Origin: Flavobacteriales bacterium
GTDB taxonomy: Bacteria; Bacteroidota; Bacteroidia; Flavobacteriales_D; Sanyastnellaceae
Length of the DNA stretch: 64,000 bases
Direction: 5' to 3'
NCBI GenBank assembly: GCA_028823145.1
Contig: JAPKCA010000001.1
Span: 240 to 64,239 of the forward strand
How positions within the stretch are numbered: the first letter of the stretch is position 1; every line of letters begins with the position of its first letter. The translations under genes were made by a program, and so were the position numbers. Shown here piece after piece: positions 3,508 through 59,890 of this stretch. Under the pieces are notes generated by a model, which ran no database searches, was not told where the DNA came from, and was given only the letters and a program-made list of their open reading frames with translations.

Positions 3508-3560
3508 CCGTTTCTCCTATATCTCAATGTCAATGAGTGGCATACTTTATAAATACAATG

Positions 3561-3589
3561 AGAAGGCCCCGCATTTTGCTGGGCCTTCT
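3561..3589 (-). terminator. Strong stem-loop, probably the terminator of the 3708..4250 gene
   Basis: agaaggccc / gggccttct stem (9 bp) with an 11-nt loop. On the minus strand it is followed by a moderately T-rich stretch (cattgtatttat). Confidence 0.4.
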
Positions 3590-3707
3590 TCATAAATCGT
3601 GTTGTTGAATGTCAGTGTGTATTCCTGATCGCTGAACACGCGTTCTTACAGTGAATAATCCTGGACGCAGCGAGCAGCGAAGCCGCAGGGACGAATGCCA
3701 CGTGAAG

Positions 3708-7356: not shown

Positions 7357-7362
7357 TCTAGG

Positions 7363-8790: not shown

Positions 8791-8861
8791 GAACAAAGCT
8801 TTGTAGCAATCTAACAACAGAATGATGCAGATTCCTCTTGGAAACGTAGGAACTTGGTCAA

Positions 8862-9470: not shown

Positions 9471-9474
9471 CAAG

Positions 9475-42760: not shown

Positions 42761-43851
42761 GCTTGCAAGGAGTCTGCAATGCTAATCGCCGCCTGACCTG
42801 AACCATAAAATGGCTCGTCATATGGAAGAGGCAATTCAGGCATTTGAAGGATACAATTCAATAAATCATCTGGTTGAGGACAGAGTTGCGCAAAACCACC
42901 GGAAACCAATTCACTCCATTCTGTCGTATCGCGCATCACAATCGATGGCCTGTGGAAGAAAAACGCTTCCTTTTGGAGCCCTCCTGAATCAGTCCAAACC
43001 GATGCAACCTGATGCAGCCATTTCGTCATTTGAACATATCCTGCAGGCTCCTCCACTTGTATCCCCAAACCCACGAGCTGTTTTTTCCACTCCATTCCAA
43101 AAGCCGACAACAAGGATTTGGCTGTTCTCGGATGAACAGGAAATATGACATTGAAACCCCTTTGATTCGCCACCTCACCAACTTTAAAAACCCATCTCTT
43201 CAATCGCTCGATATCATCTACGTTAGACGGCCGGTGCATCGTCCACAAGACTTGCTTGCTTCCTGCTGGAACGGCGGTGGGGGGTCCGCCAATGAACCTG
43301 GCGGTATCCAGCATCAAATCCCCACATTGACTCACCAGGATATCCGAGCGCGAACCGGTAAAAACTCCTTCTTTCCTGAGCTGATCTACGGCACCGTGAG
43401 TAGGGCAAAAAAGCACGGAGCTCAAATGATCCGTTAATACCCGATTGACCTCTTCCGGCATAGATCGATCAAAAGATCGCAATCCCGCTTCAATATGAAC
43501 AATGGGGATTCCCGCACGAGAACCGGACCAGGCACCTGCCAGTGTGGAATCGGTATCACCATACAGAATAATAGCATCAGGTTGATAGGCTGCTATGGCT
43601 GACGAGATCCCTTCCATCATCTGTCCCATTCTCACGATTGGATGGGAATCCACCTCTAGTTGGATATCCGCTTGACGAAGACCCAACTCCCGGAAAAAGA
43701 TACCTGACATGTCGTCTGACACGTGTTGACCGGTGTGCAACACCTGTTCTACCATACCATGCGATCCAGATTTGAGCGTGCGACTTAAGGCAGCGGCCTT
43801 CATCCATTGTGGTCTTGCACCGATGATGGTGAGTAGTTTTTTCATTCGCAT
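42745..43851 (-). CDS. wecB: UDP-N-acetylglucosamine 2-epimerase (non-hydrolysing)
   Basis: IIGARPQWMK, GDTDSTLAG, HIEAGLRSFD...PEE.NR are typical WecB motifs. Confidence 0.85.
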   Translation of the reverse strand: MRMKKLLTIIGARPQWMKAAALSRTLKSGSHGMVEQVLHTGQHVSDDMSGIFFRELGLRQADIQLEVDSHPIVRMGQMMEGISSAIAAYQPDAIILYGDTDSTLAGAWSGSRAGIPIVHIEAGLRSFDRSMPEEVNRVLTDHLSSVLFCPTHGAVDQLRKEGVFTGSRSDILVSQCGDLMLDTARFIGGPPTAVPAGSKQVLWTMHRPSNVDDIERLKRWVFKVGEVANQRGFNVIFPVHPRTAKSLLSAFGMEWKKQLVGLGIQVEEPAGYVQMTKWLHQVASVWTDSGGLQKEAFFFHRPSIVMRDTTEWSELVSGGFAQLCPQPDDLLNCILQMPELPLPYDEPFYGSGQAAISIADSLQAWFQK

Positions 43852-45242: not shown

Positions 45243-48200
45243 ATGAACCATCTCCACCGCCTTCAAACCCACCTATTTGCAGCGCTTTTGATGGGTGGTT
45301 CTGCCGCATTCAGTTGGGGGCAAGATTCGGCACTATTTGAAGATATATCAGCAAGTGCCGGAGTGAACTTTACTGGAGTTCATCATTCCGTTGCCATAGT
45401 TGATTATGACGGCGATGGATGGGAAGACATCTATGTGGGAAGCAAGTTTCAGAACAATTCGCTTTTCCGGAACATGGGTAATCTGACCTTTCAAGAAGTC
45501 GGTGCTTTGGCGGGCGTTGATGACCCTGGAGATTCACATGCCGTGCTTTGGGGCGATTTCAACAACGATGGCTGGCCCGATTTAATTACCGGGAACTACT
45601 TAGAAGCCAACCGATTCTATTGGAACAACGGCGATGGAACGTTCACTGACATGACCACGCAGCTGGGAGTCGGGAATACGGGACCCTGCAGGAGCTTGCA
45701 CGCCGCTGATTTTGATCAAGACGGCTGGCTAGACCTGTACGTGGTCAATATCAATAGTCAAAATGTCATGTGGCGCAATTTGGAAGGCGAGGGTTTCCAG
45801 AATCTGACCTTTCAAACCGGAACAACAGACATGGGTGTTGGCATGGGCAGCGTGTTTTTCGATGCCGATAACGATGGCGATCAAGACTTGTATTTGACCC
45901 GCGATGGAAATCAGGTCAACCGCTTTTTCAGCAACAACGGCAACGGAACTTTCACTCAAATGGCTGCTGAGGTCGGGCTCGATTTCCAAGGCAACTGCAT
46001 GGGAGTTGACGTCGCTGACATCAATCACGACGGCTGGCTTGATCTCTACATTACGGATCTGTATCCGAGTGAACTTTTCATCAACGATGGTGACGGAACA
46101 TTTACCGCGATTGGAGAATCCTCCGGAGTCAACGATATGGGCATGAGCTGGGGATGTGCTTGGCTGGATTTTGACAACGACTCGGAGTCCGACTTGTACA
46201 TCGTAAACGACTATGCTTTTGCCCCGATGTCCAACATCCTTTACCGGGGATTAGGCGACTTGGCATTCGAGGTTGTCAGTGCAGGAGATTCTGTGTTGGA
46301 GCACAACTATTCCGATTACGGTTTGGCTCAAGGGGATTTTGATCGCGATGGCGATATGGACTTAGCCGTGGCATCTACTGGCTCCATCACCCTTCCTGGT
46401 TTCACATTGCTGAAAAACCTGAATTCTTCTGGCCATTCCATCCAATTCAAACTCGAAGGGACCTCATCCAATCGAGATGCTGTCGGCGCACGAGTCACCG
46501 CCTACTTTGATGGCACAATGCGCATGGACGAAGTCAATTGTGGCCAAGGATATAGCGGAGCCAGCTCCATGGTTTTGCATTTTGGTCTTGGGTCCACCAC
46601 GGAATTGGATTCATTGCACATTCGCTGGCCCAACGGAATCAACAGCACATACGAAAGCATGGCTGCGGATTCATTGTATCATTTGGTCGAGCCTGGAGCC
46701 AACTCCTGGTTATATTATGGATGCACCGAAACCCATGCATGCAATTATCAAAGCGCCTCTGTCGAAAACGATGGCTCGTGTGAATACCCCAATGCCGGAC
46801 TGGATTGCAATGGTTCTCCATTGCCCGACTTCCCAACTTTGGAGACCCATAGCATTGCACGATTATGGAATGAAGCTCTTTTGGTGGCAATCCGAAACGA
46901 TTGGGCGCGTCCTACTGTGCACGCGCGCAACTTGTGGCACAGTTCTGCGCTGATGTATGACGCGTGGTCAGCCTTTTCAGAACCCAGCATCGTGAGTCCT
47001 CAGTCTTGGCTTTTGGGTGACACAGTGGATGGTTTTTCCATCCCCTTTTCTGGCGTGCTTGAACCGGAAAGCGATTCAGAACGTCTCATAGCTCGTCGCA
47101 GAGCTCTCAGCTTCGGCATGTATCGCTTATTGCAGCATCGTTTTGCTCTCGCCCCGCATGCACAATTGATTTCCGTTCATCTCCATTCTCAGATGGAATC
47201 CTTCGGGTATGACACGGCTTTTGTCTCCATGGATTACACGACCGGTGATTTAGAACACGATGCCGCTGCCCTTGGAAATTATTTGGCGCAGCAATACATC
47301 GCTTTTGGATTGCAAGATGGTTCACGGGAAGAAATCCAATTCCAAAACACCTATTACAATCCCATGAATTGGAATTTGGTTATGGACGAACCCGGCAACC
47401 CAAACATGTTTTTTCCAAACCGATGGCAGCCGCTGCAGTTGGCTGAATTCATCGACCAATCAGGAAATGAAGGCTCCAATATTTCACCGGACTTTCTGAG
47501 TCCAGAATGGGGGGATGTCACTCCCTTTGCCATGGACACGAGTGATACCAGCTTGTTCGAACGGCTGGGCAGTACCTACACGGTTTATCATGATCCAGGG
47601 GCTCCCCCCCAAATTAATCCATTGGTCGATTCCGATTTGGAATCCGATTACAAATGGGGACATGTACTGGTCGCCCAATGGTCCTCCCATCTCGACCCTT
47701 CAGACAGTGTTGTATGGGATATCAGCCCCGGAGCTTTTGGACGCAATGGAGACACGCCTACCACTATGGAAGAAGCGCGGCTCTACTACCTCACAGAAGA
47801 AGGCGGAATGGCGCCTGGAGAAGGTGAAGTGGGCCATCCGTACAATCCAACCACCAATGAGCCATATGCTCCACAATCTGTTTTGCGTGGGGATTTCACG
47901 CGCGTCCTAGCCGAATTCTGGGCAGATGGGCCCGAATCAGAAACTCCTCCTGGTCATTGGTTTACATTGATGAATTATGTCAATGACCAGCCTTCCACCT
48001 TGAGGAAATGGCGTGGTACGGGAGAATCCATGTCTCAACTGGATTGGGATGTCCTGGGCTACTTTGCAATGGGTGGCGCTATGCATGATGCAGCCATTTC
48101 AGCTTGGAGCATCAAAGGATGGTACGACTACGTACGCCCTGTATCGGCATTGCGATGGATGGCTGAAGGCGGTCAAAGTAGTGACCCAGAGCTCCCCAAT

Positions 48201-48980
48201 TTCCATGGATCGGGCCTGCCATTGATTCCTGGGTTTGTGGAATTGATTGCAGATTCTGATCCAGTTGAATTGCGCGGAGAGAACAATGAACATGTTGATG
48301 ATATCAAGCTCAAGTCGTGGTTGGGGCCCACAGCGATTCAAGTTCCTGCGATCGACAAAGCTGGAGTCGGTTGGATTCGGGCAAAGGAATGGTGGCCGTA
48401 TCAAAGGCCCACATTTGTCACACCGCCATTTGCTGGATATATCAGCGGACACTCGACCTTCAGCCGGGCTGCAGCGGAGGTATTGACCTTGCTGACCGGA
48501 GATGAGTACTTCCCTGGCGGCTTGGGGACATTCCCTGTAGAAGCTCATGAATTCCTCGTGTTTGAGGATGGTCCATCACAAGACCTGGAATTGCAATGGG
48601 CCACGTACCGAGATGCAGCAGATCAAAGTGCGTTGTCTCGCATTTGGGGCGGCATCCACCCACCACAGGATGACTTTCCAGGACGGATCATCGGCGAACT
48701 CGTTGGAATCGACGCTTTTTTACTTGCGGAAACGTACGCCTTCCCATTGCTCTCTCCAGACTGTGGAAGCCAAAATGGCTGTCCATGTCCCGGTGACTTC
48801 AACCAAGATGGTGCTCGGAATTTACCGGATATTTTGCTTTTGCTGATGCATTATGGCGAGCCCATTACTTGGGATGGAAATGGCGCATCACCGGTGATCG
48901 ATCTCGACAACAACGGCATCATCGGAATTGGAGACTTATTAGGTCTGTTGGGCGTTTGGGGTCAACCTTGCAGCGATTGA
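45243..48980 (+). CDS. Large secreted fusion: FG-GAP/VCBS + ASPIC/UnbV (CRTAC1-like) region, ACNY Cys module, vanadium-haloperoxidase/PAP2-like domain, and two dockerin-like repeats
   Basis: Signal peptide. Repeated DxDGDGWxDLY FG-GAP units. RDAVGARVTAYFDG...QGYSGASSMVLHFGLG (ASPIC/UnbV). The PAP2/VHPO triad is K958-x6-RP (IKGWYDYVRP), ISGHST, and SRIWGGIHPPQDD. The tail has GDFNQDGARNLPDILLLLMHYG and DLDNNGIIGIGDLLGLLGVWG. Confidence 0.8.
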   Translation: MNHLHRLQTHLFAALLMGGSAAFSWGQDSALFEDISASAGVNFTGVHHSVAIVDYDGDGWEDIYVGSKFQNNSLFRNMGNLTFQEVGALAGVDDPGDSHAVLWGDFNNDGWPDLITGNYLEANRFYWNNGDGTFTDMTTQLGVGNTGPCRSLHAADFDQDGWLDLYVVNINSQNVMWRNLEGEGFQNLTFQTGTTDMGVGMGSVFFDADNDGDQDLYLTRDGNQVNRFFSNNGNGTFTQMAAEVGLDFQGNCMGVDVADINHDGWLDLYITDLYPSELFINDGDGTFTAIGESSGVNDMGMSWGCAWLDFDNDSESDLYIVNDYAFAPMSNILYRGLGDLAFEVVSAGDSVLEHNYSDYGLAQGDFDRDGDMDLAVASTGSITLPGFTLLKNLNSSGHSIQFKLEGTSSNRDAVGARVTAYFDGTMRMDEVNCGQGYSGASSMVLHFGLGSTTELDSLHIRWPNGINSTYESMAADSLYHLVEPGANSWLYYGCTETHACNYQSASVENDGSCEYPNAGLDCNGSPLPDFPTLETHSIARLWNEALLVAIRNDWARPTVHARNLWHSSALMYDAWSAFSEPSIVSPQSWLLGDTVDGFSIPFSGVLEPESDSERLIARRRALSFGMYRLLQHRFALAPHAQLISVHLHSQMESFGYDTAFVSMDYTTGDLEHDAAALGNYLAQQYIAFGLQDGSREEIQFQNTYYNPMNWNLVMDEPGNPNMFFPNRWQPLQLAEFIDQSGNEGSNISPDFLSPEWGDVTPFAMDTSDTSLFERLGSTYTVYHDPGAPPQINPLVDSDLESDYKWGHVLVAQWSSHLDPSDSVVWDISPGAFGRNGDTPTTMEEARLYYLTEEGGMAPGEGEVGHPYNPTTNEPYAPQSVLRGDFTRVLAEFWADGPESETPPGHWFTLMNYVNDQPSTLRKWRGTGESMSQLDWDVLGYFAMGGAMHDAAISAWSIKGWYDYVRPVSALRWMAEGGQSSDPELPNFHGSGLPLIPGFVELIADSDPVELRGENNEHVDDIKLKSWLGPTAIQVPAIDKAGVGWIRAKEWWPYQRPTFVTPPFAGYISGHSTFSRAAAEVLTLLTGDEYFPGGLGTFPVEAHEFLVFEDGPSQDLELQWATYRDAADQSALSRIWGGIHPPQDDFPGRIIGELVGIDAFLLAETYAFPLLSPDCGSQNGCPCPGDFNQDGARNLPDILLLLMHYGEPITWDGNGASPVIDLDNNGIIGIGDLLGLLGVWGQPCSD

Positions 48981-48981
48981 A

Positions 48982-51231
48982 CTAGTCGTGTATTCCTTGG
49001 GCATGAACCACCAGTTCATCCATAAACATCCAAGACGGCGAAGATGCCGCATCATGCCAATCAGGACAAGGACCTGGGTTCACCGCTTCCATTCGAATCC
49101 ATTCTGCTTGTGCATCCGCAGGCAGTGAAATCCGCACGATATCTTGCAAATCTGTTGGTTCCAAGATATTTCCCAAACTCACCGTTTGGCCTTGCCAATC
49201 TTCCCCATCCAAAGACCAACCAAAATAGATATCCGCTGGTAAAAATATCCAAGCATCTTGGTAGCGGTATAACTGGACGCTCAGTGAGTCCAACATCACG
49301 CGTTGCGGAAGTTGCATCGTGATGGACATATTCTCTGATTGGATCGCCTGCCAGCATCCATCGCGAAAGTCCAAAGAACCCAGCCGCCCATCCGCCAATC
49401 CTTGCATTCCACCACCTGGATAATACGGGCTAATTGAATGACCAATTGTCACCTCTGAGAAAGCGCCAACATGTCCGGCTACAGGGAATATCAGGGTATC
49501 ACGGAGCGGGCGTCCGTGGCGATTTAATATCGCTTGGATTTCACCTTCTCCCTTCAACGACATAAGCGAACCCAAAGGCCTCGAATCGCCAGGTTCCAAA
49601 TCGGACCGCTCGACAAATTGAACCGTTCCTTCCAAATGACCAATGGCCCTTGTCAACGTCACGTCTACACCAAACGGATCGCCCCCCTTGTTCCATGAGA
49701 CCTCAAGCGGAACAGCTTCCAACCCCGCATCTACTCCCCATGCATCGAGCCGTCGGTCGTGCCGAATTTTACGGTCTGAAAAACCTTCCCAATTTCTCAA
49801 ATTTTTGGGACTCCACAGCACCTCTGCCAAAGCCACCATACGTGGAAAGACTTTCGATTCAACCAAGGATTGAGGTGCGTGCTCGGTCCACATGTTGCAT
49901 TCACCACCCAAAATCCGACCCGCGCCCTCCAGGCCTTCAGGCTCAGGTTCAAATCCATATACTTCCTCCATATTGGTGGCACTTATGGGGTAGTCAAAGT
50001 AGCAATGCGACGTAGGAGACATGATGGCATCGCGTCCGGCATTTACAGCAGCCATGCCACCTTCCATTCCACGCCAAGACTGAACAGTAGCGCCCTCCGG
50101 CAAGCCACCCTCCAAGATTTCGTCCCAACCGATTAACTGGCGGCCATGTGCGGCCAAATACCGTCCAATTCGATTGATGAACCAAGACTGAAGTTCATGC
50201 GTGTCATGCAATCCCTCTTCCTCCATCCTTTTTTGGCATTTTGGGCATGCATCCCAACGCACTTTGGGAGCTTCATCCCCACCGATATGAATGAATCGTG
50301 ATGGAAACAACTCCATGACCTCATCCAAAACCGATTCCAAAAAGCGGAAGGTCGTGTCTTGGCCAGCGCAATAAATATCTTTAAAAACTCCCCAATCATT
50401 GGGAACCTCCAAGGTGTCTCCGGTGCAGCTGAGCCATGGATAAGATGCCAATGCCGCACGGCTGTGTCCGGGCAATTCAATTTCCGGTATGACGGTGACA
50501 TGGCGCTGATGCGCATAGGCAACGATGCCACGAATTTCTTCTTTCGTGTAGTAGCCACCGTGTTGAGAACCATCCTTTTCGGTGCGCCATGCACCCACGG
50601 TGGTCAAAGATGGATACGCTTCGATCGGTACGCGCCAACCTTGATCTTCTGTCAAATGCCAATGGAGCACGTTCATCTTGTGAAGCGCCAGTAAATCAAT
50701 CATCCGTTTGATAAAATCCGGCTCCATGAAGTGCCTGCAGCAATCCAGCAAAAGACCTCGATGTTCGAAGCGGGGCGCATCAAAAATTTCCACTTCAGGC
50801 ATCAGAACATCATTTTTAAACCCAAGTTGTTCCGCTTCCACGGGCAGGATTTGACGCAACGTGGTCAACCCTCGAAAAACCCCTTCAGCATCTGAAGCAT
50901 GGATACTGACCCCTTTCGTGGAATCCACCTGCAAACCATATCCACCAACAGGGGTTTTTTCGGAAAAAATCACACGCAATGGAGTACCTGTTGAATCTGC
51001 TTGACCTGGAATCCAATCCTGCCAAAATCCTTGCTGACCCACCCATTTCGGAGATATTTCCCAGCGCCATCGGAGTCCCTTCACCAACAAAGTGGCCGCT
51101 GATGCCTTCGTTTCCATTTGAGCGGGCAAGGGGACCAATCCATCCAAAGAACCATACACCGATTCTTCAGCAGTTTGGGAACATGAAGAAAGGATCAAGC
51201 AGATAACAAAAGGGAGAATGGTGAATCGCAT
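48982..51231 (-). CDS. GH20 beta-N-acetylhexosaminidase lipoprotein with a C-terminal discoidin (F5/8 type C)-like domain
   Basis: Lipobox MRFTILPFVICLILSSC. GH20 catalytic HIGGDE, with HWHLTDDQGWR-like HWHLTEDQGWR. The start could also be 51255. Confidence 0.85.
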   Translation of the reverse strand: MRFTILPFVICLILSSCSQTAEESVYGSLDGLVPLPAQMETKASAATLLVKGLRWRWEISPKWVGQQGFWQDWIPGQADSTGTPLRVIFSEKTPVGGYGLQVDSTKGVSIHASDAEGVFRGLTTLRQILPVEAEQLGFKNDVLMPEVEIFDAPRFEHRGLLLDCCRHFMEPDFIKRMIDLLALHKMNVLHWHLTEDQGWRVPIEAYPSLTTVGAWRTEKDGSQHGGYYTKEEIRGIVAYAHQRHVTVIPEIELPGHSRAALASYPWLSCTGDTLEVPNDWGVFKDIYCAGQDTTFRFLESVLDEVMELFPSRFIHIGGDEAPKVRWDACPKCQKRMEEEGLHDTHELQSWFINRIGRYLAAHGRQLIGWDEILEGGLPEGATVQSWRGMEGGMAAVNAGRDAIMSPTSHCYFDYPISATNMEEVYGFEPEPEGLEGAGRILGGECNMWTEHAPQSLVESKVFPRMVALAEVLWSPKNLRNWEGFSDRKIRHDRRLDAWGVDAGLEAVPLEVSWNKGGDPFGVDVTLTRAIGHLEGTVQFVERSDLEPGDSRPLGSLMSLKGEGEIQAILNRHGRPLRDTLIFPVAGHVGAFSEVTIGHSISPYYPGGGMQGLADGRLGSLDFRDGCWQAIQSENMSITMQLPQRVMLDSLSVQLYRYQDAWIFLPADIYFGWSLDGEDWQGQTVSLGNILEPTDLQDIVRISLPADAQAEWIRMEAVNPGPCPDWHDAASSPSWMFMDELVVHAQGIHD

Positions 51232-51264
51232 GGTTTCAAAAATAGGGTGTTGCATATGCTCAAA

Positions 51265-52776
51265 TCACGGGAACCACGCGCGAACCGCATCAGCTGAAAC
51301 GGGGTACGTGGTGCCATCAAAATACTTCATGGTTCTTTCATTTTTCTGTCGGCATGAGGCATGCACGGCACCGACCCCCATGTTCTGCCAAGTCGCTTTT
51401 TGGTCGGGATGAACGCCACTCGCCACAGTGACGTCGAATCCCCATTCCAGCAATTGAGCAATTCTGGCTTGGCCATCCCATGCACGCTCTTCACCTCCAC
51501 TACTCAACAACCTCAAAACCCCCAATTCACGCAAGGCATGTACATCCGACTCCCAATTTAGCGAAGCGTCCAATGCTCGGTGGATGACAAGTCGGTGTGC
51601 GCCAAACAAGTCGGTCCAGCGACGAATTTTTTCGATTTCGAACCGGCCTTGAGCGTCCAATGCGCCAACTACGACGCGACTAGCACCGGAATTCAACGAT
51701 GCTTCAACTTGATGGGTCATCCCCTCCCATTCAGATTCGGAATACTCAAAATGTCCCGCCCGTGGACGGATCAAGCTGTATACCGGAATGCCATGCTCGC
51801 AAGCACGGCGAATATCCACTTCGTTGGGCGTTAAACCACCGCATTCCCAATGGGAGCATAGTTCCACTCGACGGGCACCATGAGCCGAAGCAATGGCCAC
51901 ATCTTCTGGTGAACTGGCACACACTTCCAATGTCAACGGGTCGTTTGGATCGGCAAGTTGGTGGCTGACATGTTCCAAATCCGCCAAGCTCGTCATGTCC
52001 AATATGGATTCCGCGATGGGCAAAACCTCCAATCCATGGCCGGAATCAATCATGGCCTGCACGGCAGATGGCAATTCCTTTTCCCCACGTTTCGGATGCG
52101 GTGACAAGGCGAGTAAAAAAGGCATTAAAATTTCAGCATCAAACCGGAAAAGATTCATTGAAACCAAGACCGGACCCTTCAAATGCAAGCGGTTAATGGT
52201 ACTTACGTCTGGCTTTTCACAAATGGAAACAAGACGTCCCTCTTGCATTTCGATAACGGCAAATGATTCAACCCGATCTGGCGGCAATCCCAGACACATG
52301 CGGTCATAGCCTAAAAGCGCTTGACCAGAGGGGACTCCTCGCAACCGAGCCAAAGCTCGAACCGAAGGTAAATTATCCCCGTTGCATAAAACAAAGCCCG
52401 ATTGAGAAGGCAATGGATCTTGTTCCATCGCCACCAACACTGCATGGCCCGTGCCGAGGGGTTCATCTTGAATTGCCAACGCAATGCGCATCCGAACCCC
52501 GATGCCCCGCTCATTCCACCCTTGGACAAACGATTCAGTAACGTGATCTGACGGAGCTACGACCAATGTCGCTTCACTGAAACCAGCCGCTAGTGCGTTC
52601 TCTAAAACAAACTGCAAAAACGGCTGCCCTTCTTCTCCGACTCGGATCATGGGTTTTGGTCGGGACAAGGCGTCTTGACGCCATGCGTCCGGCCAATGGG
52701 ATGCTGTCTGCGCCGAACTTTTCTTCATGCGTGTCGCCCTGCCAGCCCCTAAAATGATGATTCGTTCACATCGCAT
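51265..52776 (-). CDS. Fusion protein: sugar-phosphate nucleotidyltransferase (N-terminal ~280 aa) + CutC-family TIM-barrel domain (C-terminal ~220 aa)
   Basis: The N-terminus has IILGAGRATRM (GxGxR pyrophosphorylase loop), EPLGTGHAV and CNGDNL. From about aa 281, LTLEVCASSPEDVAIASAHGARRVELCS...GGLTP...IRPRAGHFEYS matches the CutC signature layout. Confidence 0.75.
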   Translation of the reverse strand: MRCERIIILGAGRATRMKKSSAQTASHWPDAWRQDALSRPKPMIRVGEEGQPFLQFVLENALAAGFSEATLVVAPSDHVTESFVQGWNERGIGVRMRIALAIQDEPLGTGHAVLVAMEQDPLPSQSGFVLCNGDNLPSVRALARLRGVPSGQALLGYDRMCLGLPPDRVESFAVIEMQEGRLVSICEKPDVSTINRLHLKGPVLVSMNLFRFDAEILMPFLLALSPHPKRGEKELPSAVQAMIDSGHGLEVLPIAESILDMTSLADLEHVSHQLADPNDPLTLEVCASSPEDVAIASAHGARRVELCSHWECGGLTPNEVDIRRACEHGIPVYSLIRPRAGHFEYSESEWEGMTHQVEASLNSGASRVVVGALDAQGRFEIEKIRRWTDLFGAHRLVIHRALDASLNWESDVHALRELGVLRLLSSGGEERAWDGQARIAQLLEWGFDVTVASGVHPDQKATWQNMGVGAVHASCRQKNERTMKYFDGTTYPVSADAVRAWFP

Positions 52777-52818: not shown

Positions 52819-53874
52819 TTAATCCTGTTCTATTGTCACTCCATCTTCTCCCAGTTCCACAACCATTGGTCGTCCTCCCTTAGATTCTACGGCTGAATTC
52901 ACATCTTGAACCATCGAACTCTCCGTGACCACAAAGCAGGTACCCCCTCCACCCGAACCATTGATTTTTCCACCCCATGCTCCGGCATCCAAGGCTGCCA
53001 TCAGAATGCGATCGATGCGATCAGTTGAAACATGGAGCACATCGCGAAGCAAATCATGGTGGTGTGTCAACAAAGGAGCCCATTGAAGCGGTTCATCGGC
53101 AAAATCCCTCAAACCTTGGTATCCGAATTCGCTGACATCACGAATGGCCACTGTTCCTTCCATCAATGCGCTTTGGTCAAGCGAGAATGAAACAGGAAGT
53201 GGAGGCAGTGCCTTGCCGGAGTCCAAAGACCAAGTGGTATCCCAATGCTCCATCAAATCCAGTCGTTGGTGTTTGGCACGCCCCAACACACCCAAGGTGT
53301 TTTTCGGTTCGCCGGAATCGATTAATATCCACGTTCCTGTTGGTTTGGGAAGGCTGATTTCACAAAAGGAAGGCGCAAATTCAAATCTCCTCACTCCTCC
53401 CAATGCACAGGCATAGTGGTCCATCATTCCACCGGGTTCGTTGAACCATTGAACTTCAGCGCGATGTGCTGCTTCCGCTACCCAGCGAGGAGTTACATCC
53501 AAGCCCGAACGAACAGCAATCATACCACACCAGGCCACCACCAAAGCGGTTGAACTACTGGCTCCCGCTTGCTGTGGAATATCACTCGTCACTTGCGCAT
53601 TCCAACCCGTTTTAGGCAACCATCCTTCACGGGAAGCGACATGCAATGCCGACAACCAATATCCCCTGGAACCTGGCGCAGGCAACGCATCCAAATCCCA
53701 CGAAAAAACCTCCCCGATATCCAATAATTCGAGATGAACGATCCGATCTTCCCGGGATTGACTCCGCACTTGGCAGCGAACATCTACGGCAGCAGCAACC
53801 ACCGGCAACCCCAAATAATCCTGGTGCTCACCAAACAGGCAAATACGGCCAGGAGCTGAAGCATTGACGTTCAC
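52819..53874 (-). CDS. GHMP-family sugar kinase (galactokinase / GalNAc-kinase-like)
   Basis: APGRICLFGEHQDYLG (galactokinase signature), IPQQAGASSSTALVVA (GHMP ATP motif) and INGSGGGGTCFVV. The GTG start at 53874 forms a GTGA overlap with the upstream symporter stop. The listed 54045 start runs into the symporter gene. Confidence 0.75.
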   Translation of the reverse strand: MNVNASAPGRICLFGEHQDYLGLPVVAAAVDVRCQVRSQSREDRIVHLELLDIGEVFSWDLDALPAPGSRGYWLSALHVASREGWLPKTGWNAQVTSDIPQQAGASSSTALVVAWCGMIAVRSGLDVTPRWVAEAAHRAEVQWFNEPGGMMDHYACALGGVRRFEFAPSFCEISLPKPTGTWILIDSGEPKNTLGVLGRAKHQRLDLMEHWDTTWSLDSGKALPPLPVSFSLDQSALMEGTVAIRDVSEFGYQGLRDFADEPLQWAPLLTHHHDLLRDVLHVSTDRIDRILMAALDAGAWGGKINGSGGGGTCFVVTESSMVQDVNSAVESKGGRPMVVELGEDGVTIEQD

Positions 53875-55631
53875 TTCTTGGAGCGATTGATCCAAATGAT
53901 CGCTACAGCACAAATCACGGCAAGGGAAGTCAACCAGATGGCTCGATCGGTGGCAGCATACAACCACGAACCCGTCGCAAACAAGGCAGCATACACCCCG
54001 ACTGAACCCAAAATCATAGAGAGCATGCCCATGGGAACCGACCACGCTTCTCCTTTGGGTGAACCGTCACTCCATCTTTTCCATCCGGGACCCCCTGGAC
54101 GAACTTTGGACACAAAAGATTGCAACGTAGCATCCGACTCAGCTGGAGTTAATAACGTTCCGACTATCCAAATCGAGGTCGTCAACAAAGTCCCCCACAG
54201 CAGCTTTTCGTAGTCGGCCAATTCCACCCAATTCAAGTGATCATGGACGAACGTAAAGTAGCCTGCGACCAAAATCGATCCTACCATCGCAATCAACTCC
54301 GTCCAAGCACTGATTCGCCACCAAAACCATCGCAGAATGAAAAGCCCGCCCGTTCCAGCACCAATCAACAACAGCAAATTGAATGCTTGCCCCGCATCCG
54401 TCAACAACAATCCCAGTCCTCCTCCCAAAATGAGCGAAATTACCGTGGCAATGCGACCCGCTCGAACTTGCTCCCTTCCCGTTGCTTCAGGATGAATGAA
54501 TCTCACCCAAAAATCATTGACCAAATAGCTCGCGCCCAAATTGATTTGCGTCGACATGGTACTCATAAAAGCCGCAAGCAACGAAGCTGCGACAAGGCCT
54601 AACAGCCCTGGAGGAAGCAATGAAAGCATGGCAGGATAGGCCAAATCATGTCCAATCTTGTCGGCGGGTATATCTGGGAATGCTTGTTGCAAATCAGCCA
54701 GAGTAGGATAAACCACGATGGATGCCAAGGCAATCAAAATCCATGGCCATGGACGCAAGGCATAGTGCGCCACATTGAACAACAACGTAGCACCCACGGC
54801 ATTCGACTCGTCCTTGGCGCTAAACATGCGTTGGGCGATGTACCCTCCACCTCCGGGTTCTGCACCGGGATAATAACTCGCCCACCATTGCACCGCTAGA
54901 GGAACCAACAAAACGGGGATCCAAGCCGAAGGATCGGACATGTCAGGCAGCATGTTCGTTTTTGAAGCCACATCCGGATGCTCAAGAAGGGCCGTCAATC
55001 CCCCAATCATCTCCAAGTCTAACAAATAGATACATGCCCAAACGCTGCCGATCATCGCCAATATGAATTGAACGAAATCGGTCAAAATCACAGCCCTAAG
55101 CCCTCCCAACGCACTGTAAGAAATCGTAATGACACCGGTAATCAGAAGCGTCAGCCATCCTGGCCAGCCCATCAAAATGCCACCGAGCTTAATGGCCGCC
55201 AACGAAACCGTTCCCATGACCAATACATTGAACACCAAACCCAAGTACAAGGCTCTGAAGCCCCTCAACCATGCAGCCGGTTTCCCTCCGTAACGCAATT
55301 CATAAAATTCGATGTCCGTCAAAACGCCCGAACGGTGCCACAACCGGGCATACACAAAAACCGTGAGCATTCCCGTCAACAAAAAGGCCCACCAGCCCCA
55401 GTTTCCGCTCACCCCTTGTTCCCTGACGAGACCCGTCACCAAGTTCGGCGTGTCTGTGGAAAATGTGGTCGCCACCATACTCACTCCGAGCAACCACCAT
55501 GGCATGTTGCCTCCTGCCAAGAAAAAGCTCTTGGCATCTTGACCTGCTTGACGTGAAGCCCAAAGGCCAACACCCATGGCCAACAAAAAATAGGCCGCGA
55601 TGATCGCCCAATCTAGTCCTGTTAAATGCAT
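53871..55631 (-). CDS. Sodium:solute symporter (SSS) family transporter
   Basis: 586 aa, about 13-14 TM segments, with an SSS-like N-terminus (LDWAIIAAYFLLAMGVGLWASR...FFLAGGNMPWW). Confidence 0.8.
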   Translation of the reverse strand: MHLTGLDWAIIAAYFLLAMGVGLWASRQAGQDAKSFFLAGGNMPWWLLGVSMVATTFSTDTPNLVTGLVREQGVSGNWGWWAFLLTGMLTVFVYARLWHRSGVLTDIEFYELRYGGKPAAWLRGFRALYLGLVFNVLVMGTVSLAAIKLGGILMGWPGWLTLLITGVITISYSALGGLRAVILTDFVQFILAMIGSVWACIYLLDLEMIGGLTALLEHPDVASKTNMLPDMSDPSAWIPVLLVPLAVQWWASYYPGAEPGGGGYIAQRMFSAKDESNAVGATLLFNVAHYALRPWPWILIALASIVVYPTLADLQQAFPDIPADKIGHDLAYPAMLSLLPPGLLGLVAASLLAAFMSTMSTQINLGASYLVNDFWVRFIHPEATGREQVRAGRIATVISLILGGGLGLLLTDAGQAFNLLLLIGAGTGGLFILRWFWWRISAWTELIAMVGSILVAGYFTFVHDHLNWVELADYEKLLWGTLLTTSIWIVGTLLTPAESDATLQSFVSKVRPGGPGWKRWSDGSPKGEAWSVPMGMLSMILGSVGVYAALFATGSWLYAATDRAIWLTSLAVICAVAIIWINRSKK

Positions 55632-55674: not shown

Positions 55675-56034
55675 TCATAAGCCGAGCTCCAATCGGGATT
55701 TTTTCGTCATGGAAGCGACAACTCGCTCGTAACTATGTTCAATCAACTCTCCCACCAGTTTTAACGGTACATCCGATTCAGCATCAACAGAATTCCAATG
55801 CTTCTTATTGAGGTGCCAACCTGGCCGAATGCCCAGAAACTGCTCTCGCAATTCGATGGCTCGTTCCGGACTGCACTTGAGAGAAATGCCGGTAAAATTA
55901 TCAATGTCCGCAATCGCAAACACCTTTCCCTCAACCTTCCACACCATGGTATGTGTGTCGAACGGAAAGCTCTCTGAAACGTACCGATAGGACAAGCATA
56001 CGTCACGAACTTCATCGAATTCAAAAGATCTCAT
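55675..56034 (-). CDS. MmcQ/YjbR family protein
   Basis: FPFDTHTMVWKVEGKVFAI...SLKCSPERAIELREQF..I.PGWHLNKKHWNSV is typical of the family. Confidence 0.75.
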   Translation of the reverse strand: MRSFEFDEVRDVCLSYRYVSESFPFDTHTMVWKVEGKVFAIADIDNFTGISLKCSPERAIELREQFLGIRPGWHLNKKHWNSVDAESDVPLKLVGELIEHSYERVVASMTKKSRLELGL

Positions 56035-56090
56035 TGGGAATGAAGGAAAGGAAGCTAATTTGCGGCAAATTTCGACGAAACCTTATCACG

Positions 56091-57023
56091 ATGAAAATTA
56101 CAACTTTACTCACGGTAGCGGCTACTTTGACTTCGGTCATATCTAGCGCACAATGCACCGATTTATTTATATCTGAATACCTGGAAGGAACTGGCAACAA
56201 CAAGGGGCTCGAGTTCTACAACCCGACGTCAGAAACCATCAACCTCTCTGGTTATCAATTGCAGCGTTGGAGCAATGGCGAAGGCACAGCGACCGATTGG
56301 GTCGACTTGATTGGCGAAGTTGCCCCGTTCGGCACCTGGGTATTGGTCAATGGACAAACGGAAGATGTGGACCTCGGCGGTGGAGCAACTTCTCCTTTGT
56401 GCGATCCAGCTATGCAGGCTCTTGCAGATCAATTGGACAACCCGTACCCTGCTCCTACCTACATGAACGGAGATGACGCATTGGTATTGGTCAAAAACAT
56501 CACGACCATTTTGGATATTTTTGGAAAACCCGGTGAGGATCCTGGTGTGGCTTGGACCAACGATGAAGCGAACGGATACATCGATATCGGAGATGGAGCA
56601 GCATGGTTGACTTCCAATCATACGTTGCGTCGCAAATATGACGTAATCCAAGGCGTTGTAATACCTCCAGTAAGCTTCAACACCTTCTTGGAATGGGATA
56701 CGTTGGTGGTGAACACGTGGGATGGATTGGGTGAGCATTTTTGTGCCTGCAATCCAAACGAAGTTGCTGAAATGAGTCCAGCTGTGACTACGTCGGTTTT
56801 CCCGAATCCTTCCTCAAATGGCATGTTGACCATCCAAGCGGATGCTCGGATTATGAAAGTGACCATTCACTCCATGACAGGCGCTTTGGTCTGCGAAGAA
56901 TTTGCAATTCCGGGCGGCTCACTGGCTGGCTGGAAGACACGTGAATTGAACGCAGGTTCCTACATCGTCAATTTGTACGTCGAAGGCGGAAAGACCTTTG
57001 CTCATCAAGTTTTGATTCAATAA
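56091..57023 (+). CDS. Secreted lamin-tail-domain (LTD) protein with a T9SS C-terminal domain
   Basis: Signal peptide MKITTLLTVAATLTSVISSAQ. DLFISEYLEGTGNNKGLEFYNPTSETINLSGYQL resembles the LTD at the N-terminus of ExeM/NucH-type extracellular nucleases. CTD SVFPNPSSNGMLTIQ... Confidence 0.7.
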   Translation: MKITTLLTVAATLTSVISSAQCTDLFISEYLEGTGNNKGLEFYNPTSETINLSGYQLQRWSNGEGTATDWVDLIGEVAPFGTWVLVNGQTEDVDLGGGATSPLCDPAMQALADQLDNPYPAPTYMNGDDALVLVKNITTILDIFGKPGEDPGVAWTNDEANGYIDIGDGAAWLTSNHTLRRKYDVIQGVVIPPVSFNTFLEWDTLVVNTWDGLGEHFCACNPNEVAEMSPAVTTSVFPNPSSNGMLTIQADARIMKVTIHSMTGALVCEEFAIPGGSLAGWKTRELNAGSYIVNLYVEGGKTFAHQVLIQ

Positions 57024-57027
57024 AAGC

Positions 57028-59880: not shown

Positions 59881-59890
59881 TCGTCATATC

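What the first reader, a model, noticed from the sequence alone, without database searches (positions are those of the whole stretch)
51265..52776. Rosetta-stone fusion of an NDP-sugar pyrophosphorylase with CutC
CutC is a conserved TIM-barrel protein historically linked to copper tolerance, and its biochemical function remains unclear.

Here a CutC domain (about nt 51265-51936; LEVCASSPEDVAIASAHGARRVELCS...GGLTP...IRPRAGHFEYS) is fused in frame to a nucleotidyltransferase with an intact GxGxR loop. The fusion sits inside a sugar-salvage operon. This argues that CutC acts on a phosphosugar or nucleotide-sugar intermediate, for example as an epimerase, aldolase or phosphatase-type TIM barrel, rather than in metal homeostasis.
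Basis: partly seen in the sequence, partly recalled or inferred. Interest (0 to 1): 0.65.

Follow-up and report, generated by a model that had tools for sequence, protein, structure and literature searches.

The report
GlmU-like uridylyltransferase fused to CutC
A marine Flavobacteriales bacterium fuses a sugar-activating enzyme to CutC, a protein conserved from bacteria to humans with no known biochemical function, and this fusion plus CutC's gene neighbours across many phyla point to N-acetylglucosamine / N-glycan-core salvage rather than copper handling.

Summary
Window 51265-52776 (minus strand) is one 503-aa ORF. Its N-terminal half is a GlmU-like sugar-1-phosphate nucleotidylyltransferase (aa 1-275). 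Its C-terminal half is an intact CutC TIM barrel (aa 282-503).

It is not an artefact. About 49 protein clusters at 41-97% identity, from independent assemblies, keep the same architecture and the same operon: SSS transporter, GalK-like kinase, fusion, GH20 lipoprotein.

Sister lineages carry the same orthologous genes fused differently (kinase::NTase, with CutC separate). In Sphingomonas dokdonensis CutC is fused to the GlcN-6-P deaminase NagB-II, inside a nagP-nagA operon.

In 80 CutC loci sampled across phyla, 39 carry NagK-like ROK kinase, GH20, glycosylasparaginase, GH2 β-mannosidase, GH29 fucosidase or a PNGase-fold protein. Only 2 of 80 control loci do (p≈3e-12).

The closest folds outside CutC are phosphate-binding barrels (HisA, TrpF, PdxS, ThiE, MfnB). 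The putative copper-binding cysteines are not conserved.

Best reading: a HexNAc salvage operon in which CutC acts on a phosphorylated N-acetylhexosamine. The exact reaction remains unknown. I found no paper proposing this link.

The parts
51952..52776 (-). N-terminal domain (aa 1-275): GlmU-like sugar-1-phosphate (probably HexNAc-1-P) uridylyltransferase. The P-loop LGAGRATRM lies at nt 52729-52752. A variable ~20-aa insertion follows, before the RPKPM lysine motif.
   Evidence: Pfam PF00483/PF12804. The family profile's best solved match is the GlmU uridylyltransferase domain over its full length, E 1.2e-14, with the P-loop, Q..PLGTxxA, NGDN, EKP and RGExELP motifs aligned. Foldseek returns GlmU, GalU and RmlA.
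51934..51951 (-). Short interdomain linker (aa 276-281, ADPNDP).
   Evidence: Alignment A1 shows a conserved-length junction in all fusion orthologues. The AF2 model has pLDDT 93 and pTM 0.92 for the whole two-domain protein.
51265..51933 (-). C-terminal CutC (β/α)8-barrel domain (aa 282-503, plus the stop codon). All family-invariant residues are present: E284, R303, E305, G313-G314, P317, R337, R339, H399-R400, D403, S426-G427, G454, H472.
   Evidence: Pfam PF03932, E 1.9e-35. PDB sequence hits 1twd, 3iwp, 4r9x, 2bdq. Foldseek TM-score 0.86-0.90 to solved CutC structures. Invariant columns.
52819..53874 (-). GalK-type GHMP anomeric sugar kinase (351 aa). Its GTG start overlaps the transporter stop codon (GTGA).
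   Evidence: Pfam GalKase_gal_bdg, GHMP_kinases_N and GHMP_kinases_C. The family profile matches galactokinases at E 1e-34 and GalNAc kinase at E 7e-30. PGR..GEHQDY and GGMMD are invariant. The start-codon overlap is read directly from the sequence.
53871..55631 (-). Sodium:solute symporter (SSS family), the presumed importer of the free sugar.
   Evidence: Pfam SSF, E 1e-31, and TIGR00813. The gene is conserved at this position in all N::C operons and in distant K::N operons.
48982..51255 (-). GH20 β-N-acetylhexosaminidase with a lipoprotein signal (…LILSSC), 9 nt downstream of the fusion.
   Evidence: Pfam Glyco_hydro_20, E 7e-112. It is a full-length homologue of B. thetaiotaomicron BT0459 (PDB 6q63, E 1e-130). 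GH20 always follows CutC in related loci.
55675..56034 (-). YjbR-family small protein, possibly the first gene of the operon (43 nt upstream of the transporter).
   Evidence: Pfam YjbR. Present at the same position in L009/L010 but absent in L006-L008, so its membership in the operon is uncertain.

Best explanation
The ORF encodes a bifunctional cytoplasmic enzyme of an N-acetylhexosamine (HexNAc) scavenging operon.

Proposed pathway:
1. The GH20 surface or periplasmic lipoprotein releases terminal β-HexNAc from glycans. It is a full-length homologue of the N-glycan enzyme BT0459.
2. The SSS symporter imports the free sugar.
3. The GalK-type GHMP kinase phosphorylates the anomeric hydroxyl to give HexNAc-α-1-P.
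4. The N-terminal GlmU-like domain converts this with UTP to UDP-HexNAc.
5. The C-terminal CutC domain is a cofactor-independent, phosphate-binding (β/α)8 barrel that acts on a phosphorylated HexNAc of the same pool.

The single activity that would fit all partner sets seen here is an isomerisation between HexNAc phosphates. Those partner sets are a 1-kinase plus uridylyltransferase in this lineage, and NagK-like 6-kinase, NagA and NagB-II in others. An example would be linking the HexNAc-1-P (salvage) and HexNAc-6-P (catabolic) branches. Acid/base ring-opening or epimerase chemistry of the HisA/TrpF/NanE kind is another.

What is shown: the domain identities, the conservation of the fusion, the operon structure, the alternative fusions, and the neighbourhood enrichment.

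What is inferred: the sugar identity (from GH20 and the GlmU similarity), UTP specificity (from the conserved Gln/Gly base-recognition motif), a phosphorylated CutC substrate (from fold neighbours and Gly-rich loops after β6/β7), and the reaction class. I give about 0.75 to 'CutC works in HexNAc metabolism', about 0.55 to 'on a phosphorylated or nucleotide-activated HexNAc', and about 0.3 to the isomerase/mutase sub-hypothesis.
For: Domain calls: 3, 4, 12, 84, 86.

Fusion conservation: 41-97% identity in about 49 clusters, with invariant residues in both halves. The model is confident, with pLDDT 93 and pTM 0.92 (44).

Operon conservation: it holds down to 44% identity, with overlapping or near-abutting genes.

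Alternative fusion K::N + CutC + GH20: the proteins are orthologous, at kinase 41%, NTase 34% (with the same P-loop insertion) and CutC 40% identity. It occurs in more than 65 clusters and in the operon esterase-SSS-K::N-CutC-GH20.

Standalone CutC-GH20 pair, with a GH2 β-mannosidase alongside.

CutC::NagB-II fusion inside an MFS-...-NagA operon in Sphingomonas dokdonensis: the protein is held in NCBI and UniRef, and a fused relative at ≥90% identity is present in an independent assembly (74-78).

Other contexts: Bifidobacterium has ROK - cutC - nagB - nagA. In Xanthomonas, cutC lies next to an asparaginase and the nix N-glycan cluster (18, 50).

Census of 80 CutC loci: ROK 19, GH20 12, Asparaginase_2 7, GH2 5, GH29 5, Transglut_core 4. 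At least one of these occurs in 39/80 loci, against 2/80 control loci, p = 2.7e-12 (38-42, 46, 72). Immediate operonic neighbours: ROK 14, GH20 5, Asparaginase_2 5, GH2 5, GH29 4, Asparaginase_II 3 (65). The ROK neighbours score best to the NagK model.

Fold neighbours of CutC are phosphate-binding barrels: MfnB with PRPP, HisA, TrpF, PdxS with R5P, KGPDC, ThiE.

The cysteines proposed as the Cu(I) site are not conserved. The E. coli copper phenotype belongs to MicL.
Against: No enzymatic or genetic data exist for any CutC in sugar metabolism, so everything here is guilt by association.

The two kinase types found next to CutC phosphorylate different positions (C1 versus C6). A single common phosphorylated substrate is therefore not obvious, and a TIM-barrel phosphomutase has no precedent.

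All standard steps of GlcNAc metabolism already have known enzymes, and these co-occur with CutC (NagA, NagB). CutC must therefore do something off the textbook map.

About half of the sampled CutC loci show no sugar context (Enterobacterales, many Actinobacteria).

The K-N cassette also occurs without CutC or GH20, next to a GntP-type permease, in Aquirufa. Its sugar specificity may therefore vary.

The N::C fusion itself is confined to three clusters at 50% identity.

Census caveats: the loci are off-centre 8-kb tiles, the motif used to find CutC requires the second Cys, the family HMMs were built from the case set, and the control set has a different taxon mix.
Confidence: 0.55

Rival explanations
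1. CutC acts at the anomeric centre of an unphosphorylated sugar. It would be either a β→α GlcNAc mutarotase feeding the anomeric kinase (as GalM feeds GalK), or a hydrolase for the 1-amino-GlcNAc (glycosylamine) left by glycosylasparaginase- or PNGase-type amidases.
For: All recurrent neighbours either release β-GlcNAc or β-glycosylamine (GH20, Asparaginase_2, Asparaginase_II, transglutaminase/PNGase-fold) or phosphorylate free GlcNAc (ROK, GHMP). A GalK-type kinase needs the α-anomer, while retaining GH20 releases the β-anomer (established enzymology). Transport is by non-PTS systems (SSS, MFS, ABC), so free sugar reaches the cytoplasm. This single activity would fit both the 1-kinase and the 6-kinase contexts. 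HisA and TrpF, which are fold neighbours, open glycosylamine rings.
Against: The fold neighbours and the Gly-rich β6/β7 loops, together with three invariant Arg, point to a phosphate-bearing ligand. The fusion partners are NTase and NagB-II, not the kinases or amidases. The K-N-C operons contain no amidase. No known mutarotase is a TIM barrel.
Confidence: 0.2
2. The kinase-NTase-CutC cassette works on a sugar other than GlcNAc/GalNAc, for example MurNAc (an AmgK/MurU-like peptidoglycan salvage), mannose, or an acidic sugar. GH20 would then be only a neighbour.
For: The K-N pair occurs with a GntP-type (acid-sugar) permease and without GH20 or CutC in Aquirufa. There is a weak NCBIfam hit of the N-domain to MurU and a PDB hit to MurU 4y7t. 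GH2 β-mannosidase is a frequent CutC neighbour. The kinase cannot be assigned a sugar from sequence.
Against: GH20 is separated from the fusion or CutC by 9 nt or overlaps it, and it is invariably present in N::C and K::N + C operons down to 36-44% identity. The best full-length structural and sequence relative of the N-domain is the GlcNAc-1-P uridylyltransferase GlmU. Independent CutC contexts (NagK-like ROK, NagA, NagB, NagB-II) point to GlcNAc.
Confidence: 0.12
3. The CutC domain is not catalytic. It would be a sugar-phosphate-sensing (allosteric) module that regulates the fused or neighbouring enzymes.
For: It is fused to two different enzymes of amino-sugar metabolism (NTase, NagB-II) that do not share a substrate. 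GlcNAc-6-P is a known allosteric effector of NagB-I (established knowledge). No activity has ever been found for CutC, despite four solved structures.
Against: Invariant polar residues (Glu, Arg, His, Asp, Ser) sit at the C-terminal ends of all eight strands, the classical catalytic face. CutC is mostly a standalone protein and is conserved up to humans.
Confidence: 0.08
4. CutC is what its name says, a copper (or other metal) homeostasis or chaperone protein, and the fusion and neighbourhoods are incidental.
For: There are historical genetics in E. coli, reports of Cu(I) binding by human CUTC, and a 2022 Xylella study. The Xylella study is cited in PMC13198582 and was not read. The human CUTC report is from my own knowledge. 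C286 and C307 are present in the window protein.
Against: The E. coli phenotype is caused by loss of the MicL sRNA encoded inside cutC, not by loss of the protein (PMC4102768). The first Cys is replaced by Ile or Val in 2 of 20 fusion orthologues, and the second Cys is absent in B. anthracis CutC. No copper genes recur among CutC neighbours in 80 loci, whereas amino-sugar and N-glycan genes do, at p≈3e-12.
Confidence: 0.04
5. The fusion is an assembly, frameshift or gene-calling artefact.
For: The window comes from an uncultured organism. The closest relative is a MAG.
Against: There are about 49 clusters of ~500-aa proteins from NCBI, JGI, ENA and Logan assemblies with the same junction. The frame is continuous. 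Three 50%-identity representative clusters exist in an exhaustive search.
Confidence: 0.01

Closest known systems
GlmU (bifunctional GlcN-1-P acetyltransferase / GlcNAc-1-P uridylyltransferase)
   Same: The N-terminal Rossmann-like uridylyltransferase domain has the LAAGxxxRM loop, the Q..LGTxxA base-recognition motif and a GE..LP motif. It is the best solved match to the N-domain profile. As in GlmU, a second domain acting in the same amino-sugar pathway is fused at the C-terminus.
   Different: The C-terminal partner is a CutC TIM barrel, not a left-handed β-helix acetyltransferase. Scores lie far below every GlmU equivalog cutoff. A ~20-aa insertion follows the P-loop. The operon logic is salvage (kinase + transporter + GH20), not de novo synthesis.
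Fkp of Bacteroides (L-fucokinase / GDP-fucose pyrophosphorylase), and the AmgK-MurU and NahK-type anomeric-kinase salvage routes
   Same: The logic is the same: free sugar → anomeric kinase → sugar-1-P → NDP-sugar. In Fkp, a GHMP kinase and an NTase are fused, as in the K::N relatives found here.
   Different: The domain order is reversed relative to Fkp (from my own knowledge of Fkp). AmgK and NahK belong to a different kinase fold (APH-type), so this is an analogue and not a member. None of these systems includes CutC.
Type II phosphomannose isomerase / GDP-mannose pyrophosphorylase (AlgA, ManC, XanB) and yeast Gal10 (epimerase + mutarotase)
   Same: These are precedents for an NDP-sugar enzyme fused to an isomerase-type domain that catalyses a non-adjacent step of the same pathway. 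That is the kind of relationship proposed for NTase::CutC.
   Different: The partner folds are unrelated (cupin PMI, β-sandwich mutarotase) and the sugars differ. The comparison rests on established knowledge and was not tested here.
Solved CutC proteins (Shigella/E. coli 1twd/1x7i, human CUTC 3iwp, B. anthracis 4r9x, S. agalactiae 2bdq)
   Same: Same fold (TM-score 0.86-0.90) and the same invariant residues.
   Different: All of them are standalone proteins of ~225-290 aa annotated as copper homeostasis proteins. Here the domain is fused to an NTase and carries lineage-specific invariants (C312, H342, C475, R476).
Phosphate-binding (β/α)8 barrels: HisA, TrpF, PdxS, ThiE/TenI, KGPDC, MfnB
   Same: These are the nearest structural neighbours outside CutC (Foldseek E 1e-7 to 1e-5). 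They share Gly-rich loops after β6/β7 and acidic residues at β1 and β5, as in HisA and TrpF (inference).
   Different: Sequence identity is only 12-17%. CutC has no invariant Lys, so it is not a class I aldolase or Schiff-base enzyme. It lacks the DxKxxD motif of the OMPDC suprafamily.

Membership tests
CutC family (Pfam PF03932) | Match to the family HMM above the gathering score | tested here: met
   122.6 bits against a 23.3 cutoff, aa 282-475, covering profile positions 2-200 of 202.
CutC family (Pfam PF03932) | (β/α)8 barrel superposable on solved CutC structures | tested here: met
   The AF2 model of the domain has pLDDT 96. Foldseek to 1x8c, 1twd and 3iwp gives TM-score 0.82-0.90 and rmsd 2.2-2.7 Å.
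CutC family (Pfam PF03932) | Family-invariant residues (E-β1, RxEL(C)-β2, GGxTP, RPRxGxF, HRAxD, SG, GGG, HxS) | tested here: met
   All 26 columns that are invariant across 23 diverse CutCs are kept in the window protein.
CutC family (Pfam PF03932) | Equivalog of enterobacterial CutC (NCBIfam NF008603) | tested here: not met
   118.6 bits against a 311 cutoff. The protein is a domain-level member, not an equivalog.
CutC family (Pfam PF03932) | Copper binding or a role in copper tolerance | not testable with these tools
   The Cys pair is present here (C286, C307) but is not conserved in the family. The E. coli phenotype has been reassigned to MicL.
Sugar-1-phosphate nucleotidylyltransferases (Pfam PF00483, GlmU/RmlA/GalU group) | HMM match above the gathering score, and the fold | tested here: met
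   PF00483 scores 39.5 bits against a 21.2 cutoff. Foldseek to GlmU, GalU and RmlA gives E ~1e-14. The profile against PDB GlmU gives E 1.2e-14.
Sugar-1-phosphate nucleotidylyltransferases (Pfam PF00483, GlmU/RmlA/GalU group) | Catalytic motifs: G-x-G-x-x-R loop, PK lysine, Q/G base-recognition motif, acidic (N)GD(N) metal site, EKP sugar-phosphate site | tested here: met
   G12, R16, K41, Q103, P106, G108, N132-G133-D134-N135, E187-K188-P189 and S206-M207-N208 are invariant across the N::C and K::N families. They align with the GlmU motifs.
Sugar-1-phosphate nucleotidylyltransferases (Pfam PF00483, GlmU/RmlA/GalU group) | Demonstrated NTP + sugar-1-P activity and specificity | not testable with these tools
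   UTP and HexNAc-1-P are inferred from motif similarity to GlmU and from GH20 linkage only.
GlmU (bifunctional) equivalogs | C-terminal LβH acetyltransferase domain and an equivalog-level score | tested here: not met
   No hexapeptide-repeat domain is present. The GlmU NCBIfam models score 20-33 bits against cutoffs of 367-718.
GalK-type GHMP anomeric sugar kinases (neighbouring gene) | Galactokinase signature, GHMP N and C domains, catalytic Arg and Asp | tested here: met
   Pfam GalKase_gal_bdg, GHMP_kinases_N and GHMP_kinases_C. R10, the GEHQDY motif and D152 (GGMMD) are invariant. The profile matches galactokinases at E 1e-34. The sugar is not determined.
GH20 β-N-acetylhexosaminidases (neighbouring gene) | GH20 catalytic domain plus the GH20b domain | tested here: met
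   PF00728 at E 7e-112 and PF02838. Full-length similarity to BT0459/6q63, E 1e-130.

The most novel reading that the evidence does not exclude
CutC, including human CUTC, is a previously unrecognised enzyme of N-acetylhexosamine-phosphate metabolism tied to N-glycan-core / GlcNAc salvage. It would catalyse a reaction absent from current pathway maps. Candidates are a cofactor-independent HexNAc-1-P/6-P interconversion, an epimerisation or anomerisation, or the clearance of a glycosylamine or damaged amino-sugar phosphate. Its 'copper homeostasis' name would then be a historical misannotation.
Probability: 0.3. Interest if true: 0.85.

Novelty: new variant of a known kind. Interest (0 to 1): 0.7.

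Why it matters
CutC is one of the widely conserved proteins, from bacteria to humans, that still lacks a biochemical function. Structures have been available since 2004, and its only classical phenotype (copper sensitivity in E. coli) has since been reassigned to an sRNA.

This locus provides two alternative fusions of one kinase-NTase-CutC module. Together with an independent CutC::NagB-II fusion and a strong cross-phylum neighbourhood signal, it narrows the search to a handful of commercially available amino-sugar phosphates. It also names tractable organisms where cutC sits inside GlcNAc or N-glycan operons: Xanthomonas, Bacteroides, Sphingomonas and Bifidobacterium.

If confirmed, this would correct a pervasive annotation, so that 'copper homeostasis protein' would stop being counted in metal-resistance surveys. 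It would add a step to GlcNAc / N-glycan catabolism, which matters for gut and marine glycan turnover. It would also give a hypothesis for human CUTC. In the papers I could search, cutC next to N-glycan genes was noticed only in passing and was read as copper resistance.

Tried and rejected
Searches that led nowhere:
- Pattern-based locus finding with diverse CutC alignments failed, because no stretch was conserved enough.
- A narrower alignment reached only one rumen Bacteroidales clade. I replaced it with a degenerate DNA motif scan.
- The standalone kinase homologue in Emticicia soli lies in an unrelated context and is probably a paralogue.
- The P0298 contig was too short to give context.
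- The σ70 promoter/terminator scan was uninformative, since Bacteroidota promoters are not covered.
- There were no Rfam hits and no tRNAs in the window.
- No K::N::C triple fusion appeared among the best 120 or 150 hits of the two searches.

Hypotheses considered and rejected:
- Class I aldolase: the CutC family has no invariant Lys.
- CutC as a non-orthologous replacement of NagA or NagB: it co-occurs with both, adjacent or fused.
- CutC as a NanE analogue in sialic-acid catabolism: no NanA/DHDPS or sialidase genes appear among the recurrent neighbours.
- Assembly artefact: excluded.

Literature: eight searches found no paper assigning CutC a sugar-related activity. The name collides with choline TMA-lyase CutC, which dominates the hits.
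Full report
**1. The observation**

Window 51265-52776 holds a single 503-aa ORF on the minus strand, starting with ATG.
- Pfam places NTP_transf_3 and NTP_transferase on aa 7-248. It places CutC (PF03932) on aa 282-475, at E 1.9e-35 and far above the gathering score.
- NCBIfam agrees at the domain level. No equivalog cutoff is reached for either half.
- The nucleotide-binding loop is LGAGRATRM, the GlmU-type LAAGxGTRM loop with Ala replacing the second Gly.

**2. Not an artefact**

A search of 5.8 billion proteins returned about 49 clusters of ~500-aa proteins with both domains, at 41-97% identity. They come from NCBI, JGI, ENA and Logan assemblies, and the named ones are Flavobacteriales MAGs.
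- Alignments of 20 and 40 members show a junction of conserved length (…LADPNDPLTLEVCAS…). Dozens of columns are invariant in both halves.
- AlphaFold2 gives pLDDT 93 and pTM 0.92 for the whole protein. That implies a defined two-domain arrangement.
- An exhaustive phmmer scan of 1.84 billion representatives finds three clusters at 50% identity with the full fusion. The architecture is real but phylogenetically narrow.

**3. The operon**

All genes lie on the minus strand, in this order:

| Gene | Window coordinates | Spacing to the next gene |
|---|---|---|
| YjbR-like | 55675-56034 | 43-nt gap |
| SSS symporter | 53871-55631 | its stop overlaps the kinase GTG start (GTGA) |
| GalK-type GHMP kinase | 52819-53874 | 42-nt gap |
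| the fusion | 51265-52776 | 9-nt gap |
| GH20 lipoprotein | 48982-51255 | — |

- The same order, often with overlapping stop and start codons, holds in relatives at 60%, 49% and 44% identity.
- The kinase family keeps the galactokinase catalytic motifs (PGR…GEHQDY, GGMMD). Its profile matches galactokinases at E 1e-34 and human GalNAc kinase at E 7e-30.
- The N-domain profile's best full-length solved relative is the GlmU uridylyltransferase domain, E 1.2e-14, with all motifs aligned. The archaeal GlcNAc-1-P/Glc-1-P enzyme ST0452 and M. tuberculosis GlmU follow.
- The GH20 is a full-length homologue (E 1e-130) of B. thetaiotaomicron BT0459, PDB 6q63. I know BT0459 as a complex-N-glycan β-GlcNAcase. 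That point is my own knowledge and was not verified here.

**4. The same module in another fusion state**

In sister lineages (Crocinitomicaceae and other Bacteroidota MAGs) the kinase is fused to the NTase in a ~635-aa protein. CutC is a separate 229-235-aa gene immediately downstream, again followed by GH20. The operon reads esterase-SSS-K::N-CutC-GH20.
- The parts are orthologous to the window's. The kinase shows 41% identity. The NTase shows 34% and shares the unusual insertion after the P-loop. CutC shows 40%.
- More than 65 clusters carry K::N. No triple fusion was seen.
- A third state, standalone CutC overlapping GH20 with a convergent GH2 β-mannosidase and no K or N, also exists.

**5. 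CutC beyond this lineage**

I sampled CutC genes across the genome collection with a degenerate motif (R-x-E-L-C-x5-GGLTP). All 80 loaded 8-kb tiles contain a bona fide CutC ORF. I then clustered all neighbouring ORFs without prior assumptions and annotated the cluster representatives with Pfam.

| Neighbour family | Loci of 80 | Note |
|---|---|---|
| ROK kinase | 19 | mostly overlapping cutC on the same strand |
| GH20 | 12 | |
| ABC transporter components | 4-8 | |
| Asparaginase_2 (glycosylasparaginase type) | 7 | |
| MlrC / M81 peptidase | 6 | |
| GH2 β-mannosidase-like | 5 | |
| GH29 α-L-fucosidase | 5 | |
| Transglutaminase-core + Big_1 | 4 | the fold of eukaryotic PNGase |

- A Pfam census of the 113 immediate same-strand neighbours gives ROK 14, GH20 5, Asparaginase_2 5, GH2 5, GH29 4, Asparaginase_II 3 and Transglut_core 3.
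- Of the 80 CutC tiles, 39 carry at least one of the six sugar-related families. Only 2 of 80 tiles around the housekeeping triose-phosphate isomerase gene do (Fisher p = 2.7e-12).
- Caveats on that comparison: the HMMs were built from the case set, and the two sets differ in taxon mix.
- The signal spans Bacteroidota, Alpha-, Beta- and Gammaproteobacteria, Actinomycetota, Clostridia, Thermotogae and Spirochaetes.
- The signal is absent in Enterobacterales and in many Actinobacteria.
- The ROK neighbours score best against the NagK (GlcNAc kinase) model, though below its equivalog cutoff.
- In Bifidobacterium leontopitheci the order is ROK regulator, cutC, nagB, nagA.
- In Xanthomonas, cutC (XAC3091) lies next to an asparaginase (XAC3092) and the nix N-glycan cluster. 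The authors noted this and read it as copper resistance (PMC6718126 and PMC5700972).

**6. A second Rosetta stone**

In Sphingomonas dokdonensis, CutC is joined in frame through a Pro-rich linker to a complete NagB-II glucosamine-6-phosphate deaminase (NF046059, E 3e-101). The fused gene sits between an MFS permease and NagA, opposite a ROK/MarR-type regulator.
- The 591-aa protein is in NCBI and UniRef (WP_158212156.1, A0A245ZNF4). A fused relative at ≥90% identity is also present in an independent Logan assembly.
- RefSeq also holds a 333-aa SIS-only call from an internal start, so internal initiation cannot be excluded.
- Because NagA and NagB co-occur with CutC here and in Bifidobacterium, CutC is not a replacement for either.

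**7. What kind of protein is CutC?**

- The domain model (pLDDT 96) superposes on solved CutCs at TM-score 0.86-0.90.
- The next structural neighbours are all phosphate-binding (β/α)8 barrels. They are MfnB with PRPP, HisA, TrpF, KDPGal aldolase, PdxS with R5P, KGPDC and ThiE.
- Family-invariant residues sit at the C-terminal ends of all eight strands: E (β1), RxEL (β2), GGxTP, RPRxGxF (β3), HRAxD (β5), SG (β6), GGG (β7) and HxS (β8).
- No Lys is invariant, which argues against a class I aldolase.
- The Gly-rich β6/β7 loops and three invariant Arg fit a phosphate-bearing ligand. This is an inference.
- The acidic residues at β1 and β5 recall the acid/base pair of HisA and TrpF. This is also an inference.
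- The two cysteines proposed as a Cu(I) site in human CUTC are not conserved. The first is Ile or Val in 2 of 20 fusion orthologues. The second is missing in B. anthracis CutC.
- The E. coli copper phenotype is caused by loss of the MicL sRNA encoded within cutC (PMC4102768).

**8. Most likely mechanism**

Shown: the domain identities, the operon, the two fusion states, the independent NagB-II fusion, and the neighbourhood enrichment.

Inferred pathway:
1. GH20 releases β-HexNAc outside the cytoplasm.
2. SSS imports it.
3. The GalK-type kinase makes HexNAc-α-1-P.
4. The N-domain makes UDP-HexNAc. The Gln/Gly base-recognition motif matches that of GlmU.
5. The CutC domain acts on a phosphorylated HexNAc of the same pool.

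CutC is found with a 1-kinase plus NTase here, and with a NagK-like 6-kinase, NagA and NagB(-II) elsewhere. The most economical single activity is therefore an isomerisation among HexNAc phosphates. That could link the 1-P (salvage) and 6-P (catabolic) branches, or it could be ring-opening or epimerase chemistry.

My estimates are about 0.75 that CutC functions in HexNAc metabolism, about 0.55 that its substrate is phosphorylated or nucleotide-activated, and about 0.3 for the isomerase/mutase sub-hypothesis.

The main rival is anomeric-centre chemistry on unphosphorylated β-GlcNAc or on the glycosylamine left by asparaginase- or PNGase-type amidases. That rival explains the amidase and glycosidase neighbours well. 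It fits the phosphate-binding fold and the fusion partners less well.

The K-N cassette also occurs without CutC or GH20, next to a GntP-type permease, in cultured Aquirufa antheringensis. Its sugar may therefore differ between lineages. In the window, the HexNAc assignment rests on GH20 linkage and GlmU similarity.

**9. Comparison with known systems and novelty**

- The N-domain is a member of the sugar-1-P nucleotidylyltransferase family and works like the GlmU uridylyltransferase. It is not a GlmU equivalog, because it has no LβH domain and scores far below the cutoffs.
- The kinase + NTase logic parallels Fkp, AmgK-MurU and NahK salvage. The kinase fold differs from AmgK and NahK.
- NTase::isomerase fusions have precedents in AlgA and ManC, and mutarotase fusions in Gal10.
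- The CutC domain is a full family member.
- Eight literature searches found no proposal of a sugar-related role for CutC.
- I rate the object a new variant of a known kind, an uncharacterised bifunctional architecture. Its main value is that it makes the long-open question of CutC's function directly testable.

Noticed in passing
L105 (Sphingomonas dokdonensis NZ_NBBI01000002.1) 1857-3629, minus strand: CutC is fused in frame, through a Pro-rich linker, to a complete NagB-II glucosamine-6-phosphate deaminase. The fused gene lies between an MFS permease and NagA. The public record is WP_158212156.1, while RefSeq also lists a 333-aa SIS-only product from an internal start.
   Followed up: yes
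L011/L012 4109-6705; L162 5714-8352; L163 7001-9632: An alternative fusion of the same module: GalK-type kinase::NTase (~635 aa), followed by a separate CutC and then GH20. In L162 and L163 it is preceded by an SSS transporter and a BD-FAE/Abhydrolase_3 esterase. In L162 the esterase carries a C-terminal GC-type dockerin-like domain (L163's was not scanned), so it is probably secreted.
   Followed up: yes
window 55953-62092, plus strand: A divergently transcribed trio: a lamin-tail-domain protein with a T9SS sorting tail, a TonB-dependent receptor (CarboxypepD_reg + Plug), and a PLD-family (PLDc_2) protein with a T9SS tail. This trio is syntenic with the CutC/GH20 locus in every related lineage, fused or not (L005, L006, L009, L011, L163). 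It could be an extracellular phosphodiesterase or nuclease uptake system. Whether it is functionally linked to the HexNAc operon is unknown.
   Followed up: partly
window 45243-48980, plus strand: A 1245-aa secreted FG-GAP/ASPIC-UnbV protein with a vanadium-chloroperoxidase-like (VCPO_2nd) C-terminal region, convergent with GH20. It is conserved at this position in the N::C lineages. In the CutC-standalone lineages a GH2 β-mannosidase takes its place.
   Followed up: no
window 52666-52728 (aa 17-37 of the fusion): A ~20-aa insertion between the P-loop (GAGRATRM) and the RPKPM lysine motif of the NTase. It is variable in sequence, shared with the K::N relatives, and absent in one of them (P0207).
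   Followed up: partly
L053, L071, L072 (same strand) and L044 (opposite strand); also L013/L016 (Bacteroidales): In gut and rumen Bacteroidales, cutC is directly followed by an ~850-aa transglutaminase-core + Big_1 protein, which has the fold of eukaryotic PNGase. In a Bacteroides MAG it is also preceded by a GH29 fucosidase. This protein may be an uncharacterised bacterial GlcNAc-Asn amidase.
   Followed up: no
L094 (Akkermansiaceae) 1-942; L102 (Verrucomicrobiae) 4751-5986: In Verrucomicrobiota, cutC is preceded on the same strand by a calcineurin-like metallophosphoesterase. Three of the 113 immediate neighbours in the census belong to this family.
   Followed up: no
L286 (Aquirufa antheringensis CP049835.1) 6949-10211: A cultured freshwater Bacteroidota has the orthologous kinase and a standalone NTase, with overlapping stop and start codons. 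They are followed by a GntP-family permease and SusC/SusD, with no CutC or GH20. This organism could serve to determine the sugar specificity of the K-N cassette.
   Followed up: partly
L043 (Actinomadura madurae) 4524-6164, and two further census loci: An Asparaginase_II (PF06089) protein lies immediately upstream of cutC. This is a second asparaginase family, unrelated to Asparaginase_2, that recurs next to CutC.
   Followed up: no
window 42745-43851, minus strand: A UDP-GlcNAc 2-epimerase (Epimerase_2) gene lies about 5 kb from the operon, with RadC alongside. In relatives (L009, L011, L163) the same group also includes rpsT. This probably reflects conserved synteny rather than a functional link.
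   Followed up: no
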